A DNA stretch of 64,000 bases from IMG/VR virus record IMGVR_UViG_3300032893_000002, positions 46,668-110,667 of that record. One strand, 5' to 3'. Shown piece after piece: positions 54,938 to 58,727 of the stretch. The notes under the pieces were generated by a model. That model saw only the letters and a list, made by a program, of their open reading frames with translations. It did no database searches and had not been told where the DNA came from. The position numbers were made by a program, and so were the translations under genes. This stretch comes from a virus. The first letter of the stretch is position 1, and every line of letters begins with the position of its first letter.

Positions 54938-55330
54938 TCATTTTACACCATACTTCTTTTGTAGTGCAGCCAGTAAAGCTAGCTCTCTATCGACGGCAGT
55001 TTTTGCTGCTTCGGCGCTCCGCTGTGCTTTTTCAAGTTCTTGTTGCTCTATTGCTTTCTTAATATAAGCTTTAACTTCAGTCGGAGACGTAACTGCGAAT
55101 TCTCTACGATTCCAAGGATAATCATTTCTCCATCCTGCTTCTAAGAGAAAAAACCATTCTTCTTCCGTTAGAGAGAATCCTTTGGAATGAACTGCAAGAG
55201 CATAATAATCTTCTGCTTCTATCTGCGTTACTTCTGCAGGACCATTGATTTGTTCTAATGCCTTATTCAGCATATCAACTTCTATGCTTTCGCCCCGGGA
55301 CCACGCTATAATTTGAAATCCTTCAGTCAT
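54938..55330 (-). CDS. Hypothetical protein
   Basis: ORF only. Confidence 0.3.
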   Translation of the reverse strand: MTEGFQIIAWSRGESIEVDMLNKALEQINGPAEVTQIEAEDYYALAVHSKGFSLTEEEWFFLLEAGWRNDYPWNRREFAVTSPTEVKAYIKKAIEQQELEKAQRSAEAAKTAVDRELALLAALQKKYGVK

Positions 55331-55841
55331 TGCTTATCACCCATACATTATCTGGAAGAATTGTTCCTATTACAGCTTTAACTTCTTCCCATTTTAATCC
55401 GCCATTATTACAACCAGGACGCGGAAGAATATAAACCATTCGAGGATTTCTATGCGCTTGAAAAGATAACTGAATCGCAGAATGTTTAATTAATTCGAGA
55501 TCTGATCTGTCCCGCCAATTATGCTTTGTTGGAAAGATAAGTAAGAAATGATATTGCCCATCTTTGCCAACATTTGCATTCCAAACAACATTCCCATGTT
55601 CCTTTGCGCCGAGAAGATGATCTCCAAGTATTTTAGGAAGATGCGGGTATCGTTCTGCAGCCTCTTTTGCGCACCCTCGACCCATTACTGCTAAACCATC
55701 CTTCCTAATTGTTCCATTTGTAGTTATACAGCATGTATATCCAGGCTGTCCATCAAAATCCCAAAGATTACCTGTTATCTCTTTCACAATTACTCCTTTC
55801 CGGAGCTGTAGGCCATGGCCGTGCAGCTGGCAATGCCGCAT
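55323..55841 (-). CDS. Macro domain (ADP-ribose binding/processing) protein
   Basis: ITGNLWDF...CCITTNG...AVMGRGCAKEAAERYP and ...MVYILPRPGCNNGG follow the macro-domain pattern. Confidence 0.45.
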   Translation of the reverse strand: MRHCQLHGHGLQLRKGVIVKEITGNLWDFDGQPGYTCCITTNGTIRKDGLAVMGRGCAKEAAERYPHLPKILGDHLLGAKEHGNVVWNANVGKDGQYHFLLIFPTKHNWRDRSDLELIKHSAIQLSFQAHRNPRMVYILPRPGCNNGGLKWEEVKAVIGTILPDNVWVISND

Positions 55842-56787
55842 GGTCTACTCTATCAGGCTTAGGGTTCCGGTTTTTATTACCGTAGCTAGGTGTATCTTCT
55901 GGCGGGGGATCAGATTGAAAACTATCTTCATGATAACCAACTTTAAAGCCGGCTGTTGCTTTCTTAACTTTAATCTTTACGCTGTAAGATTCTTTTAGTC
56001 TAGCTACCGATTCTTCAACTGGAACGCCCAGACATAGATATGTACTCGCAATTTCTTTTAAATATGCTAAACTTAATCCGTCTGTTTTATCTGTTAAAAA
56101 CTTAATTGCAGGATGGTCTACACCAAGAAGTTTTTGGAAATATGCACAACGTGTCTCTGCTGCAGGCATGCCCATGCCCACTAGAAAATCAAATCTGCCG
56201 GGCCGCTTAATAAACCTATCAGCGAGTAATTCAGGATAATTTGTTGTAGCTATATGTAATATGCTATTTACTTGTGTTTGTCCATCTAACATTGACAGTG
56301 CGTGAGGTTCTTCTTGTTTATAATCGCCACTAAGAAGTGTATCCATATCCTCAATTAATGTCATCAATTTGCGCTGCGGTTCTATTTTGCGCAAACTAAC
56401 CAAGGCGTTTGATGCAATACTAAATCTGCCAATTGCAATGATAACTCCATCCTCTTTAATCATCTCATTGACAAGTTTTGCTACAATCGCACTCTTGCCA
56501 TTTCCGGGAGGTCCATATAATAGAATACCTCTTTTATGAACAAATTTATGCTTTTCGTATAAATCTTTATTAGCCCAAAACTTTGAAACTTGTTCAGATA
56601 TTAGTTCGTTTGGTAATCCGGGTAAATCAAAAATTTCATCCTTGAACTGTTCAACGTTATAAAATTCGTAGCCTTTTTGTGTTTCAAAAACACTATACAG
56701 TCCCGCAGGTAAACGTTTTACGCCAGCTTGTACAGCGTAGTATCCTGATCCGTCATACATCCAGCATGGTTGAAAATTCTGCTTCAT
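55768..56787 (-). CDS. AAA+ ATPase (classic clade)
   Basis: Walker A LLYGPPGNGKS. Walker B LIEDMD. TTNYP...RPGRFD second region of homology. Confidence 0.65.
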   Translation of the reverse strand: MKQNFQPCWMYDGSGYYAVQAGVKRLPAGLYSVFETQKGYEFYNVEQFKDEIFDLPGLPNELISEQVSKFWANKDLYEKHKFVHKRGILLYGPPGNGKSAIVAKLVNEMIKEDGVIIAIGRFSIASNALVSLRKIEPQRKLMTLIEDMDTLLSGDYKQEEPHALSMLDGQTQVNSILHIATTNYPELLADRFIKRPGRFDFLVGMGMPAAETRCAYFQKLLGVDHPAIKFLTDKTDGLSLAYLKEIASTYLCLGVPVEESVARLKESYSVKIKVKKATAGFKVGYHEDSFQSDPPPEDTPSYGNKNRNPKPDRVDHAALPAARPWPTAPERSNCERDNR

Positions 56788-56804
56788 TAAACAGGCTCCC
56801 TTAT

Positions 56805-58727
56805 CTATCGTTTACAAAGTTGTGATCCGGTATCAGTTTTAGTAATTGTCCATGTTTCGTCGAAACCAGCAAATTGGATATTTGAATGATCTACTATGAA
56901 TATTTGCTTTTTTAATATCTCTGCTCTTGTTCTCAATACTTCTAAAAAATCTTCTATTCCTTGTTGTGATAATGCTTTCGACTGTTCATCGTAAAATTCT
57001 ACTGTGAAGAATACTCCTGCAGCCCGTTGGATTAAACTAGCTAATCCAATAGCTATTGCTAAACGTAGTCTTTGTGTTTCTCCTCCCGACCAATTCTCCC
57101 AACTGCCCTCTGCAACTGGAGAGCTGATTATTATGTTAATTCCAAGTTTTGTAGTTCCAGATTTTGTTTCTGTTTCTGTTTGTAACTTGACGGCCCATCC
57201 TTCTAATCCCAAAGCGCCTACTGCTGATTGAATCTCGATTTGTAAAACAGATAAAATCTGCTCAACAAAATAAAGGCGAATATGTTTAAATCCGTGTTTC
57301 CAATATTCCGTTGCAACAAGATCAGTTTTGATTTTTTCTACGATTTTATCTACTTTACATTTTTCGTCAATAAGTTTTTCGCGATCTAGTTTTACTGTTT
57401 TCAACTTCTTTTGTGCATCTATTTCTTGTTGAATATATGGATTTTTCGATTCCTTTAGATGCGTAATTTGTTTTGAGTATGGATCAAATTTATTTTCAAT
57501 GTTTGTTAGAATTCGATTTGCATCTTCATTTAAAATAGCTATTTGGGATTCCAGGCGTGCAATATCACGCATTATTGTTCTTCGCAACGCTGCTTCTTTT
57601 GAAGCTGCATCACGAAGTATTTTTAGTTTCTCTTTACTTCGTTCTAACTTCTTCTTTGTTTCTGTCGATGTTTTATTCGCTGCTTTTGAATCTTTATCTG
57701 CTTCTTCAATTTTTGTAAGTAGTGCGGCTAACTGCTTATCTTTCTTCTGTGCAGATATGGTCTGTTCACAAGCAGGACATATCGACTGCTTCCAGAAAAC
57801 TTTTGCTTTTGTTGCTTCAGATTTAACTTGAGCAGTAAGAGCAATAATGTTCGATGCTTCCTGTACAATATTTTCTAATACAGCTATTTCTTCCGTAAGT
57901 TGCGATTCATTTGTAGATTTTGGTTCAGGCGTATCTTTTTCTCGCAACTCACTAAGTTCTTTTACTAGCAGTTCTTTCTGTTCAGCTTTTACTTCCAAGA
58001 ATTTTAATTGTTCGTTTTCCCAAGCATCCCGTTTTAATTCTAATTCCCTTAATGCATCTGCTGTTTCTATATCCCATTCTGTTATGCGACGGGCATAGAA
58101 AGAGCACAAATTTAATAATTCTTCTTCGCTTGGCAGACCAGCAAGTTTTCCTTCTATAAAAGAAATTTCTACAGCTTTAGCATTTATTTCTTGTTCTAGA
58201 AGTTTTGTCTTTTCAGCTGCGCGTTCGGTACATTGCTGCCAAATACTAAGATTAAGAACGCTATCAAGAAGTTCACTTCTCTCTGGAGTAGAAAGATCAG
58301 GAAAAAGTAAAGTTGCTTGTCCGAATATTACTGAATTCAAAAAGCGCTGCTTCGATAGCCCAAGTAATTTATCTATTTCAGATTGTTCGACTAACGTCCC
58401 GTTTAGTTCTAGCTTAGTAGGCGGGCCATATCTATGAATGCAATATTCAGTGTCATCAATATTAAGGTATATCTTTACTGCTACTTTTTCTTTTCCCCAT
58501 GATAAAACTGAACTTGTCTTAGCTCCGCGAATTCCCGAACCATACAAACACCACACAATGGCTTCTAGTAAAGAAGTTTTGCCTGCGCCATTGCTTCCTA
58601 ATTTTTCGGCAATTTCATTTCTTCCTGCAAGAAGCACCAATCCACTACGAGAATTAAATTCTATTTCAGCAGAAATAAAGGATCTGAAATTTTCTAATAG
58701 CATTTTTGTCAGCGCTACCTGTTTCAT
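56805..58727 (-). CDS. SbcC/Rad50-like SMC ATPase
   Basis: Walker A NGAGKTSLLEAI. Long coiled coil with CPAC zinc hook. C-terminal LSGGETQRL signature and IVDHS. Confidence 0.7.
   Translation of the reverse strand: MKQVALTKMLLENFRSFISAEIEFNSRSGLVLLAGRNEIAEKLGSNGAGKTSLLEAIVWCLYGSGIRGAKTSSVLSWGKEKVAVKIYLNIDDTEYCIHRYGPPTKLELNGTLVEQSEIDKLLGLSKQRFLNSVIFGQATLLFPDLSTPERSELLDSVLNLSIWQQCTERAAEKTKLLEQEINAKAVEISFIEGKLAGLPSEEELLNLCSFYARRITEWDIETADALRELELKRDAWENEQLKFLEVKAEQKELLVKELSELREKDTPEPKSTNESQLTEEIAVLENIVQEASNIIALTAQVKSEATKAKVFWKQSICPACEQTISAQKKDKQLAALLTKIEEADKDSKAANKTSTETKKKLERSKEKLKILRDAASKEAALRRTIMRDIARLESQIAILNEDANRILTNIENKFDPYSKQITHLKESKNPYIQQEIDAQKKLKTVKLDREKLIDEKCKVDKIVEKIKTDLVATEYWKHGFKHIRLYFVEQILSVLQIEIQSAVGALGLEGWAVKLQTETETKSGTTKLGINIIISSPVAEGSWENWSGGETQRLRLAIAIGLASLIQRAAGVFFTVEFYDEQSKALSQQGIEDFLEVLRTRAEILKKQIFIVDHSNIQFAGFDETWTITKTDTGSQLCKR

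What the first reader, a model, noticed from the sequence alone, without database searches (positions are those of the whole stretch)
55323..58727. Co-oriented macro domain, AAA+ ATPase and SbcC/Rad50-like ATPase block
Macro domains remove ADP-ribose from proteins or nucleic acids, or process ADP-ribose-1''-phosphate from tRNA splicing. In a phage this could reverse host ADP-ribosylation-based defence (DarT-like) or take part in RNA repair with the Thg1-like enzyme. The SbcC-like ATPase lacks an adjacent SbcD partner. The only metallophosphoesterase is far away on the other strand (44546).
Basis: partly seen in the sequence, partly recalled or inferred. Interest (0 to 1): 0.5.

Follow-up and report, generated by a model that had tools for sequence, protein, structure and literature searches.

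The report
Phage anti-DarT macrodomain beside Rad50-like ATPase
Three neighbouring genes in an uncultured soil phage are a Rad50/SbcC-type recombination ATPase, an AAA+ protein-unfolding ATPase of unknown target, and a small DarG/AdfM-type macrodomain that most likely strips defensive ADP-ribose off phage DNA; they are ordinary neighbours rather than one new system.

Summary
All three genes are real, co-oriented on the minus strand and tightly packed.

- **SbcC/Rad50-like ATPase**, 56805-58727, 640 aa. All ABC motifs and a CPAC zinc hook are intact.
- **Classical-clade AAA+ ATPase**, 55768-56787, 339 aa.
- **Macrodomain.** Its true start is GTG 55787, behind an AAGGAG ribosome-binding site, which gives 154 aa rather than 172.

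Pfam does not detect the macrodomain. DarG-specific profiles, PDB sequence matches and a high-confidence AlphaFold model all place it in the DarG/TARG1 clade. It is 29% identical to PhiKZ AdfM, an experimentally shown anti-DarT2 DNA ADP-ribosylglycohydrolase, and the catalytic Asn, Lys and glycine loops are invariant.

The "block" is not a conserved module.
- Two relatives share the SbcC-QueD-DnaB backbone but carry other genes, or almost none, between SbcC and QueD.
- AAA+ and macro homologues elsewhere are not neighbours. One close relative does keep AAA+-macro-p130.

No canonical SbcD lies in the window, although a relative has one two small ORFs upstream of its SbcC. The distant 44546 metallophosphoesterase resembles the PolD-DP1 exonuclease and lacks an SbcC neighbour in 67 of 68 loci.

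Verdict: a new member of known kinds, of modest interest.

The parts
55323..55787 (-). Stand-alone DarG/AdfM-type macrodomain gene (154 aa, GTG start). Predicted ADP-ribosyl(-DNA) glycohydrolase and orphan-antitoxin-like counter-defence protein.
   Evidence: - Profiles: NCBIfam DarG 3.1e-13; PADLOC DarG 1.2e-13.
- PDB sequence matches: DarG macrodomains 5m3i 7.9e-7 and 5m31 2.3e-6, against TARG1 0.11.
- 29% identity, E 2e-13, to PhiKZ gp104 AdfM.
- Invariant T22 T23 N24, G36 G38, P86 K88, P124 G125 C126 G129 in 55 homologues.
- AF2 pLDDT 96.3; Foldseek top matches 5M3E and 5M3I at E 1.4e-9, TM 0.75.
- Exact 154-aa product P0121 in public data.
55793..55798 (-). Shine-Dalgarno AAGGAG five nt upstream of the macro GTG start. 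It lies inside the 3' end of the AAA+ gene.
   Evidence: Read directly from the sequence. Homologues align from residue 1 of the 154-aa form.
55768..56787 (-). Single-module classical-clade AAA+ ATPase (339 aa): an N-domain of about 80 aa, the AAA module, and a non-conserved C-terminal tail of about 45 aa that overlaps the macro start.
   Evidence: - PF00004 5.4e-9.
- PDB: AFG2 2.6e-19, p97 about 1e-18, YjoB 8.3e-19, BCS1 1e-12.
- Walker A GPPGNGKS 92-99; SRH TTN...RPGR 181-198.
- The family-invariant Walker B reads E146-D147 instead of D-E.
- phrog_7485, unknown function, 2.3e-18.
56805..58727 (-). SbcC/Rad50/gp46-type SMC-like ATPase (640 aa) with a short coiled coil and a zinc hook.
   Evidence: - phrog_77 2.2e-74 over the full length; PF02463 43.6 bits and PF13476 1e-10.
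- Motifs: Walker A 44-51, Q-loop FGQ 135-137, CPAC 317-320, SGGE 547-550, FYDE 578-581, DH 613-614.
- Identity: 27% to Vibrio phage SSP002 SbcC, 40% to L007, 45% to L099.
54938..55330 (-). p130: protein of unknown function whose start overlaps the macro stop by 8 nt. It is the only macro neighbour also kept in the closest relative.
   Evidence: No Pfam, PHROG or PADLOC hit. A 48%-identical homologue sits directly after the macro homologue in L249.
58724..59458 (-). Free-standing GIY-YIG homing endonuclease abutting the SbcC start (4-nt overlap). It sits directly upstream of SbcC. In relative L007 that position holds two small ORFs, with the canonical SbcD upstream of them.
   Evidence: phrog_314 homing endonuclease 8.8e-37. 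Absent from the SbcC loci of L007 and L099.
44546..45436 (+). Metallophosphoesterase considered as a possible SbcD surrogate. It is catalytically intact but DP1-like, and most likely an independent nuclease.
   Evidence: - phrog_7339 'DNA repair exonuclease' 4.2e-17; Pfam Metallophos below cutoff; no PDB sequence hit.
- Invariant D70, H75, GD102-103, D106, GNHE 148-151, H196, GH 226-227, H229.
- AF2 pLDDT 89.1. Foldseek top match PolD DP1 at 6.5e-9; Mre11-Rad50 at rank 33, 1.9e-5.
- No similarity to canonical SbcDs.
- SbcC within 10 kb in only 1 of 68 loci.

Best explanation
The region is part of a long leftward early/replication transcription unit of an uncultured phage of at least 180 kb. 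The host is possibly a soil Acidobacteriota member. It juxtaposes one core recombination gene with accessory genes that sit in a variable slot.

1. **SbcC/Rad50-like ATPase.** This is the phage's Rad50-type DNA-end-processing and recombination ATPase. It should dimerise through its CPAC zinc hook and work with an Mre11/SbcD-type nuclease encoded elsewhere in the genome, outside this window. The sequence features are shown; the partner's location is inferred.
2. **154-aa macrodomain.** This is an orphan DarG2-like antitoxin of the AdfM kind. It binds ADP-ribose through its two glycine loops. It uses the conserved Asn24 and Lys88 to hydrolyse ADP-ribose from thymidine bases that a host DarT2-type toxin puts on phage ssDNA, which restores replication and packaging. 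Fold and residues are shown; substrate and phenotype are inferred from homology.
3. **AAA+ protein.** This is a hexameric classical-clade unfoldase or segregase whose substrate is unknown.

AAA+, macro and p130 travel together in the nearest relative. They are otherwise independent genes, and the three proteins do not form one system.
For: **Gene identities and motifs:**

**Macrodomain**
- DarG-specific profile hits and PDB DarG sequence hits.
- High-confidence model closest to DarG, then TARG1, Thermosipho DarTG and SCO6735.
- Homology to AdfM, with AdfM's mutated catalytic Asn23 aligned to invariant N24.
- The FPTK lysine aligns with the FPTKK lysine of T. aquaticus DarG. That this is catalytic K80 is from my own knowledge of the literature.
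- Stand-alone, with no DarT and no DarT-binding C-terminal domain.
- A large stand-alone phage family: 147 phage records and about 1,900 metagenomic proteins. It has no recurrent neighbour.

**Variable slot**
- L007 has SbcC, two small ORFs, then QueD-DnaB.
- L099 has SbcC, DUF1554, GT2, then QueD.
- The window has SbcC, AAA+, macro, p130, DUF4884, p95, then QueD.
- AAA+ homologues of 54-59% identity sit next to MazG and nucleotide-metabolism genes, with no SbcC or macro nearby.
- L249 keeps AAA+-macro-p130-QueD-QueE.

**Nuclease partner**
- Canonical SbcD sits two small ORFs upstream of SbcC in L007 (31% identity, E 4e-53 to SSP002 SbcD) and directly adjacent in SSP002.
Against: - No enzymatic or genetic test exists. 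29% identity to AdfM leaves substrate specificity open, because DarG/TARG1-type macrodomains also remove uracil-linked ADP-ribose from RNA (PMC13036486).
- Pfam's general Macro model fails to detect the protein.
- The host, and whether it carries DarTG2, are unknown.
- The canonical SbcD was not found, because only about 66 kb of the genome could be read. The source contig could not be retrieved.
- AAA+-macro-p130 adjacency is retained in L249 at 37-64% identity. That could mean functional linkage rather than shared descent.
Confidence: 0.6

Rival explanations
1. The DarG/TARG1-type macrodomain acts on a different ADP-ribosylated substrate. Candidates are uracil-ADP-ribosylated RNA, ADP-ribosylated proteins made by another host defence ART, or a soluble ADP-ribose-derived signal. 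On this reading DarT2-modified DNA is not its target.
For: - TARG1, T. aquaticus DarG and SCO6735 all reverse U-ADPr on RNA (PMC13036486).
- Iyer et al. 2022 argue that many phage Macro domains target soluble ADPr derivatives (PMC9503650).
- Only 25-29% identity to characterised enzymes.
Against: - The closest sequence and structure matches are DarG2 macrodomains and AdfM, whose physiological substrate is T-ADPr DNA.
- The NGGL loop is the DarG/AdfM form.
- T. aquaticus DarG is less efficient on U-ADPr than on T-ADPr.
Confidence: 0.18
2. The macrodomain belongs to an RNA/tRNA-repair pathway with the Thg1-like enzyme and PTH2. It would process ADP-ribose-1''-phosphate or a related by-product.
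For: - A Thg1-like gene (62852-63643) and PTH2 (61783-62274) lie 6-8 kb upstream on the same strand.
- In L250 a 53%-identical Thg1-like gene lies 3 kb upstream of a 52%-identical macro homologue.
- PHROG labels the family 'phosphatase'.
Against: - No KptA/Tpt1, 2H/cRec phosphoesterase or RNA ligase was found in the window or in L017.
- The Thg1-type 3'-5' polymerase reaction produces no ADP-ribose derivative (established enzymology).
- Poa1p is a far weaker structural match than DarG (1e-4 against 1.4e-9).
- Eleven other macro loci have no Thg1 within 8 kb.
- SPFH, a homing endonuclease, SbcC and AAA+ separate the two genes in the window.
Confidence: 0.07
3. SbcC, AAA+ and macro (with or without p130) form one cooperating DNA-damage-tolerance or counter-defence module. 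The macrodomain would remove ADP-ribose lesions. The AAA+ would extract DarT or stalled proteins from DNA. SbcC would process the resulting stalled or broken forks.
For: - Tight packing with overlapping or near-abutting reading frames.
- AAA+-macro-p130 order is retained in L249.
- DNA ADP-ribosylation stalls replication and is also resolved by recombination and NER in bacteria (PMC7003065 title and abstract).
Against: - Relatives with the same SbcC-QueD-DnaB backbone lack AAA+ and macro at this position.
- AAA+ homologues (L002-L004) and macro homologues (L006, L008-L016, L250) are not neighbours of each other or of SbcC.
- No PADLOC system matches the combination.
Confidence: 0.08
4. The SbcC-like ATPase has no canonical SbcD. 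It works with the 44546 metallophosphoesterase as a non-canonical, unlinked Rad50-nuclease pair.
For: - 44546 is the only MPE in the window.
- It is annotated by PHROG as a DNA repair exonuclease and its catalytic residues are invariant.
- The window and L099 both have this MPE 7-11 kb from SbcC and no SbcD next to SbcC. L007 has a canonical SbcD close upstream of SbcC and lacks this MPE at the syntenic site.
- The MPE is next to RecA in 5 loci.
Against: - 67 of 68 viral loci with this MPE have no SbcC within 10 kb, and many are contigs of 30-65 kb.
- The fold is closest to the PolD DP1 proofreading exonuclease, with Mre11 only at rank 33.
- In Moorella phage MTATph1 the gene lies between terminase and portal.
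- About two thirds of the genome is unseen.
Confidence: 0.12

Closest known systems
AdfM (PhiKZ gp104), the chimallivirus anti-DarT factor macro (Morgan et al., Cell Rep 2026, PMC13309987)
   Same: - Stand-alone phage macrodomain of about 155-160 aa in the DarG2 clade.
- 29% identity over 140 aa, E 2e-13.
- Catalytic Asn (N23 in AdfM, N24 here), the FPTK lysine, and the VMG-x-G and GC-x-NGGL loops are conserved.
   Different: - Here it is found in a phage with no evidence of a phage nucleus, so no PicA-dependent import is expected.
- Only distant sequence similarity.
- Activity untested.
DarG2 antitoxin macrodomain (T. aquaticus 5M31/5M3E, M. tuberculosis 5M3I) of the DarTG2 toxin-antitoxin system
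   Same: - Best sequence-profile and structural match: NCBIfam 3.1e-13, PADLOC 1.2e-13, Foldseek 1.4e-9 with TM 0.75.
- Same active-site residues.
   Different: - Lacks the C-terminal DarT-binding domain: 154 aa against about 340.
- Has no adjacent DarT.
- It is therefore an orphan antitoxin-like enzyme, not a TA system member.
Phage SbcCD / T4 gp46-gp47 / T5 D13-D12 type Rad50-Mre11 complexes, such as Vibrio phage SSP002 gp078-gp077
   Same: - Full-length match to phrog_77.
- 27% identity to SSP002 SbcC.
- ABC head motifs and a CxxC hook are intact.
   Different: - No SbcD/Mre11 gene is adjacent or anywhere in the 64-kb window.
- A GIY-YIG homing endonuclease sits directly upstream of SbcC. 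In L007 that position holds two small ORFs, with the SbcD upstream of them.
Classical-clade AAA ATPases (p97/Cdc48 D1, AFG2/SPATA5, B. subtilis YjoB, BCS1)
   Same: Walker A, sensor-1 Asn and SRH arginine fingers (RPGR) are present. PDB E-values are about 1e-19.
   Different: - A single AAA module of about 300 aa with its own N-domain of about 80 aa.
- Walker B acidic pair inverted (ED, invariant in the family).
- No protease or adaptor partner identified.
- No characterised phage homologue: the best cultured-phage hit is 30%.

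Membership tests
Macrodomain, DarG/TARG1 clade (AdfM-like orphan antitoxin) | Macro fold (three-layer alpha/beta/alpha) | tested here: met
   AF2 pLDDT 96.3, pTM 0.90. The top 12 Foldseek PDB matches are DarG macrodomains, TARG1 and the Thermosipho DarTG fusion, and 69 matches have E<=1e-3.
Macrodomain, DarG/TARG1 clade (AdfM-like orphan antitoxin) | Significant match to family sequence profiles | tested here: inconclusive
   DarG profiles match over the macro part: NCBIfam NF048014 3.1e-13 and PADLOC 1.2e-13. The score of 49.7 bits is far below the full-length DarG cutoff of 250. Pfam Macro gives no hit even at E<=10.
Macrodomain, DarG/TARG1 clade (AdfM-like orphan antitoxin) | Catalytic lysine of the FPTK motif (T. 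aquaticus DarG K80) and the N-terminal-strand Asn (AdfM N23) | tested here: met
   K88 aligns with the FPTKK lysine of 5m31 and 5m3i. N24 aligns with AdfM N23. Both are invariant in 55 homologues. The identity of K80 as catalytic is from my own knowledge of the literature.
Macrodomain, DarG/TARG1 clade (AdfM-like orphan antitoxin) | Two glycine-rich ADP-ribose/diphosphate-binding loops | tested here: met
   VMGRGCA (G36 and G38 invariant) and PGCNNGGL (P124, G125, C126 and G129 invariant). These align with VMGKG and G-x-GNGGL of DarG and AdfM.
Macrodomain, DarG/TARG1 clade (AdfM-like orphan antitoxin) | Removes ADP-ribose from DarT2-modified thymidine in ssDNA and neutralises DarT2 in vivo | not testable with these tools
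   Needs biochemistry and genetics. Shown only for homologues (PMC13309987).
DarTG2 toxin-antitoxin system | Adjacent DarT ADP-ribosyltransferase and a DarG C-terminal DarT-binding domain | tested here: not met
   The protein is 154 aa, macro domain only. The flanking genes are the AAA+ and p130, and neither has a DarT hit in PADLOC or Pfam.
Rad50/SbcC/gp46 SMC-like ATPases | Bipartite ABC head: Walker A, Q-loop, signature, Walker B, H-loop | tested here: met
   GSNGAGKT 44-51, FGQ 135-137, SGGE 547-550, FYDE 578-581, DH 613-614. PF02463 spans residues 6-633. phrog_77 2.2e-74.
Rad50/SbcC/gp46 SMC-like ATPases | Central coiled coil carrying a CxxC zinc hook | tested here: met
   A single CPAC at 317-320, in the middle of the charged helical insert of about 330 residues between the head halves. 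The coiled coil itself is inferred from composition and was not computed.
Rad50/SbcC/gp46 SMC-like ATPases | Mre11/SbcD nuclease gene in the same operon | tested here: not met
   No SbcD by tblastn with the SSP002 and L007 SbcDs or by MPE motif scan. Relatives SSP002 and L007 have one adjacent or nearby. The rest of the genome is unseen.
Classical AAA clade (PF00004) | Walker A, Walker B hhhhDE, sensor 1, second region of homology with arginine fingers | tested here: inconclusive
   Walker A, TTN and RPGR are present, and PF00004 scores 37 bits against a cutoff of 21.2. Walker B reads TLIED, and E146 and D147 are invariant across 37 homologues. The acidic pair is kept but inverted.
KptA/2H-type RNA repair (Appr-1''-p processing macro, Poa1p-like) | Co-occurrence with KptA/Tpt1, 2H/cRec phosphoesterase or RNA ligase; Poa1p-like active site | tested here: not met
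   None of these genes was found among the window or L017 ORFs scanned. Poa1p matches only at E 1e-4, against 1.4e-9 for DarG.
Mre11/SbcD nucleases (for the 44546 metallophosphoesterase) | MPE catalytic motifs plus Mre11-type architecture and genomic linkage to Rad50/SbcC | tested here: not met
   The motifs are present, with motif I as D-x-Q-x-G-H. The best folds are PolD DP1, and Mre11 is at rank 33 with TM 0.44. There is no similarity to canonical SbcDs. SbcC lies within 10 kb in 1 of 68 loci.

The most novel reading that the evidence does not exclude
AAA+-macro-p130 is a mobile three-gene counter-defence cassette. In it, a previously uncharacterised classical-clade AAA+ unfoldase family with an invariant inverted 'ED' Walker B cooperates with the AdfM-like macrodomain. 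It might, for example, pull DarT or another ADP-ribosyltransferase off DNA or unfold it, while the macrodomain erases the lesions. The cassette would have been inserted into a variable anti-defence slot between SbcC and the 7-deazaguanine genes.
Probability: 0.08. Interest if true: 0.6.

Novelty: new member of a known kind. Interest (0 to 1): 0.3.

Why it matters
If the assignment holds, AdfM-type orphan DarG2 macrodomains are not restricted to nucleus-forming jumbo phages. They would be a widespread stand-alone phage gene family that reaches uncultured soil phages: 147 phage records and about 1,900 metagenomic proteins matched this protein. That would imply DarT2-like DNA ADP-ribosylation is a common selective pressure well beyond Pseudomonas and E. 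coli.

There is also an annotation point. Pfam misses this clade entirely, and PHROGs labels it 'phosphatase'. For the rest, the region is a conventional phage recombination gene plus an AAA+ ATPase of unknown role. It does not open a long-standing question.

Tried and rejected
**Searches that found nothing useful**
- blastn of the block against 50,697 phage records: no match, so the phage is novel at the DNA level.
- Retrieving the source contig of at least 180 kb to look for SbcD:
  - Exact-protein look-ups failed for SbcC, AAA+ (P0001) and Thg1.
  - The macro look-up gave a 50.8-kb ENA contig (L017). That locus extends only 1.8 kb past the window.
  - The single metagenome scan, run with the flanking ABC ATPase, returned bacterial homologues and a 2.5-kb fragment.
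- Single-protein scan of IMG/VR with AAA+: nothing.
- Promoter and terminator scan: fewer promoter-like sites than shuffles, uninformative.

**Ideas tested and rejected**
- PADLOC scan for a defence-system reading of the trio: only generic SMC (LmuB 9e-15) and AAA (IetA 2.5e-10) similarity, far weaker than phrog_77. Rejected.
- Clustering of neighbours of 11 macro loci: no recurrent partner.
- Clustering of neighbours of the 44546 MPE in 67 loci: variable context (PolA in 10, RecA in 5, tail-like proteins), and no SbcC.
- The 172-aa ATG start for the macro gene: rejected in favour of GTG 55787.

**Not examined further**

Full report
**Observation**

The finding's coordinates match three long, co-oriented minus-strand ORFs.
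- SbcC-like: 56805-58727, 640 aa.
- AAA+: 55768-56787, 339 aa.
- Macro ORF: 55323-55841.

All three have matches far beyond chance.
- SbcC-like: phrog_77 2.2e-74 over its whole length, and PF02463 above its gathering score.
- AAA+: PF00004 5.4e-9, and about 1e-19 to p97, AFG2 and YjoB in the PDB.
- Third protein: DarG profiles at 3.1e-13 (NCBIfam) and 1.2e-13 (PADLOC).

Reading the DNA shows AAGGAG at 55798-55793, followed after 5 nt by GTG at 55787. The resulting 154-aa product is exactly what public gene calls contain (P0121), and homologues align from its first residue. The 172-aa ATG ORF is therefore over-extended.

The genes are tightly packed: GIY-YIG to SbcC -4 nt, SbcC to AAA+ +17, AAA+ to macro -20, macro to p130 -8. 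This fits one transcription unit. A consensus promoter and terminator scan added nothing.

**Genomic setting**

The window has no DNA-level relative among 50,697 phage records. The identical AAA+ protein is recorded on a 180,030-bp contig. A 50.8-kb ENA contig (L017) is 100% identical at the protein level for every gene compared across the region.

The plus strand up to about 46 kb carries structural genes, including giant proteins. The minus strand from about 47 kb carries early and replication genes:
- a DnaB-like helicase interrupted by a LAGLIDADG intein;
- QueE interrupted by an HNH intein;
- QueD;
- the block under study;
- a GIY-YIG homing endonuclease;
- an SPFH protein;
- PTH2;
- a Thg1-like protein.

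An ABC ATPase just beyond the window is 61-66% identical to genes of soil Acidobacteriota MAGs. This is a weak hint at the host.

**The macrodomain**

Pfam's Macro model does not see this protein, even at E<=10. Several independent lines place it in the DarG/TARG1 clade.
- **PDB sequence search.** phmmer finds the M. tuberculosis and T. aquaticus DarG macrodomains at 7.9e-7 and 2.3e-6, then the Thermosipho DarTG fusion. TARG1 appears only at 0.11.
- **Alignment.** A 55-sequence alignment shows invariant T22-T23-N24, G36, G38, P86, K88, P124-G125-C126 and G129.
- **Structure.** The AlphaFold model is very confident (pLDDT 96.3, pTM 0.90). Its best Foldseek matches are DarG macrodomains (E 1.4e-9, TM 0.75). 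Next come TARG1, Thermosipho DarTG and SCO6735. The Appr-1''-p phosphatase Poa1p appears only at 1e-4.

The literature search showed that a stand-alone phage macrodomain of this kind is already characterised. PhiKZ gp104, named AdfM, removes DarT2-installed ADP-ribose from DNA and rescues DarT2 toxicity. Mutating its conserved Asn reduces activity (PMC13309987).

I translated the published construct and compared it with the window protein. They share 29% identity over 140 residues (E 2e-13). AdfM N23 aligns with N24, and the FPTK and GC-x-NGGL motifs are shared.

The protein has no DarT-binding C-terminal domain and no DarT neighbour. It is therefore an orphan antitoxin-like enzyme, analogous to AdfM and to the NADAR-type AdfN (PMC11825919). 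It is not part of a DarTG system.

The family is large and stand-alone: 147 phage records, often annotated 'phosphatase' or 'Appr-1-p processing', and about 1,900 metagenomic proteins.

**The SbcC-like protein and its missing partner**

All Rad50/SbcC head motifs are present, along with a single central CPAC hook. The closest cultured-phage homologues are 27-29% identical. These include the Vibrio phage SSP002 group, where an SbcD gene directly precedes SbcC.

I found no SbcD in the window.
- tblastn with the SSP002 SbcD found nothing.
- tblastn with all L007 ORFs, including its canonical SbcD, found nothing for that gene.
- A motif scan of all ORFs of at least 100 aa found only 44546.

A 176-kb IMG/VR relative (L007, SbcC 40% identical) has the order RecA, PDDEXK nuclease, a 331-aa MPE, two small ORFs, SbcC, QueD, DnaB. 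That MPE is 31% identical (E 4e-53) to the SSP002 SbcD. It is a canonical partner.

The window keeps the SbcC-QueD-DnaB-p138 backbone. Upstream of SbcC it instead has a homing endonuclease, small ORFs and an SPFH protein. Only about a third of the genome is visible, so the simplest reading is that the SbcD lies elsewhere.

**The 44546 metallophosphoesterase**

- It is a conserved enzyme: 50-80% identity across many phage contigs, with invariant catalytic residues.
- It shows no similarity to canonical SbcDs and has no PDB sequence hit.
- Its model (pLDDT 89.1) is closest to the PolD DP1 proofreading exonuclease (6.5e-9). Mre11-Rad50 appears only at rank 33.
- In 68 IMG/VR loci that carry it, only L099 has an SbcC within 10 kb.
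- Its neighbours vary: PolA in 10 loci, RecA in 5, and terminase and portal in Moorella phage MTATph1.

The window and L099 both have this MPE and lack an SbcD beside SbcC. L007 shows the reverse pattern. That keeps a non-canonical pairing alive as a minority rival, but the broad phyletic pattern argues against it.

**The AAA+ protein**

It is a single-module classical-clade AAA.
- Walker A is GPPGNGKS.
- The sensor-1 and SRH region reads TTN...RPGR.
- It has its own conserved N-domain of about 80 aa.
- In all 37 aligned homologues the Walker B acidic pair is inverted, with E146 and D147 invariant.

Homologues of about 300 aa lack its C-terminal 45-residue tail. No characterised phage homologue exists. 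The best cultured-phage hit is 30% identical and annotated 'YjoB'. I can only infer a hexameric unfoldase or segregase activity with an unknown target.

**Is it a block?**

Relatives that share the backbone carry different genes in the SbcC-QueD interval.
- L007: two small ORFs.
- L099: DUF1554 plus a glycosyltransferase. The homologous AAA+ (P0010) is recorded on the same 164-kb contig, but it is not in this interval.
- The window: AAA+, macro, p130, a DUF4884 lipoprotein and p95.

The closest AAA+ homologues on long contigs (54-59% identity) follow MazG, dGTP-diphosphohydrolase and deoxyribosyltransferase genes. They have no SbcC or macro within 10 kb. Eleven macro loci have no AAA+, SbcC or any recurrent neighbour.

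There is one exception. L249, the closest macro relative (64% identity), keeps the AAA+ C-terminus, macro, a p130 homologue, QueD and QueE in that order.

I conclude three things.
1. SbcC is backbone.
2. AAA+, macro and p130 are accessory genes in a variable slot, co-inherited in this lineage.
3. There is no evidence that the three named proteins form one system.

**The RNA-repair alternative**

Thg1-like and PTH2 genes lie 6-8 kb upstream. One other phage (L250) has Thg1 3 kb from its macro homologue.

No KptA/Tpt1, 2H or RNA-ligase gene was found. Thg1 chemistry generates no ADP-ribose product. The fold also points to DarG rather than Poa1p. I rate this alternative low.

A more serious caveat concerns substrate range. 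DarG/TARG1-type enzymes also erase uracil-linked ADP-ribose on RNA (PMC13036486).

**Verdict**

- The macrodomain is a new member of the AdfM/DarG2 kind, already published for chimalliviruses.
- SbcC is a conventional phage Rad50-like gene whose nuclease partner is not in view.
- The AAA+ is an uncharacterised family member.
- Interest is modest, at 0.3.

Noticed in passing
window 52061-53668 (-) and 49156-51798 (-): QueE (radical-SAM 7-carboxy-7-deazaguanine synthase) carries an HNH-containing intein. The DnaB-like helicase carries a LAGLIDADG intein. Relatives L099, L007 and L249 have intein-free versions (QueE 246-252 aa, DnaB 464-468 aa). With QueD (53777-54265), these genes imply 7-deazaguanine DNA modification.
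   Followed up: partly
window 58724-59458 (-): A free-standing GIY-YIG homing endonuclease overlaps the SbcC start codon by 4 nt. It is absent from the SbcC loci of L007 and L099. This window carries many selfish elements: two inteins, this endonuclease, and an HNH ORF at 15537-16451.
   Followed up: partly
window 62852-63643 (-) and 61783-62274 (-); L250 4383-5081: A Thg1-like 3'-5' polymerase (PF04446 1.8e-24) and a PTH2 peptidyl-tRNA hydrolase sit close together, which suggests a tRNA-repair or anti-tRNA-nuclease function. A 53%-identical Thg1-like gene also lies 3 kb upstream of a macro homologue in an unrelated 64-kb phage contig.
   Followed up: partly
window 44546-45436 (+) and 45458-45835 (+): A conserved metallophosphoesterase with an unusual motif I (T-D-V-Q-F-G-H) and a PolD-DP1-like predicted fold. 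In the window, L099 and L181 it is paired with an SprT-like metalloprotease at the end of the structural block. The same MPE sits next to RecA in 5 other phage loci and near PolA in 10.
   Followed up: yes
window 55768-56787 (-), residues 146-147: The whole AAA+ family, 37 homologues of 40-59% identity, has the Walker B acidic pair as Glu-Asp instead of the canonical Asp-Glu. The window protein also has a unique proline- and arginine-rich C-terminal tail of about 45 residues that overlaps the macro start.
   Followed up: partly
L017 509-1360 (window-equivalent about 64.4-65.3 kb, just outside the window): The phage encodes an ABC-type ATPase (PF00005 5.7e-25) that is 58-66% identical to chromosomal genes of many soil Acidobacteriota MAGs (Terriglobales, Bryobacterales, Sulfotelmatobacter, Terracidiphilus). 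It is probably a host-derived gene and a hint at the host.
   Followed up: partly
window 401-1165 (+) and 17636-18487 (+); 6832-11484, 20753-29056, 31831-37290 (+): Two paralogous glycosyltransferase-like genes (phrog_14945) are embedded in the structural block. Three giant ORFs of 1550, 2767 and 1819 aa were not characterised.
   Followed up: no
window 59957-60871 (-) and 54526-54756 (-): An SPFH/Band-7 membrane protein (PF01145 1e-22) and a small DUF4884 lipoprotein-like ORF are interspersed among the DNA-metabolism genes. Their role is unknown.
   Followed up: no
L008 8001-8447 and 11595-12176: One IMG/VR phage contig carries two paralogous copies of the AdfM-like macrodomain 3 kb apart.
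   Followed up: no
L003 5033-6616; L004 4627-6234: Phage contigs of about 97 kb that carry the closest long-contig AAA+ homologues also encode a TROVE/Ro60-like protein with a vWA domain, upstream of a MazG, dGTP-diphosphohydrolase and AAA+ cluster.
   Followed up: no
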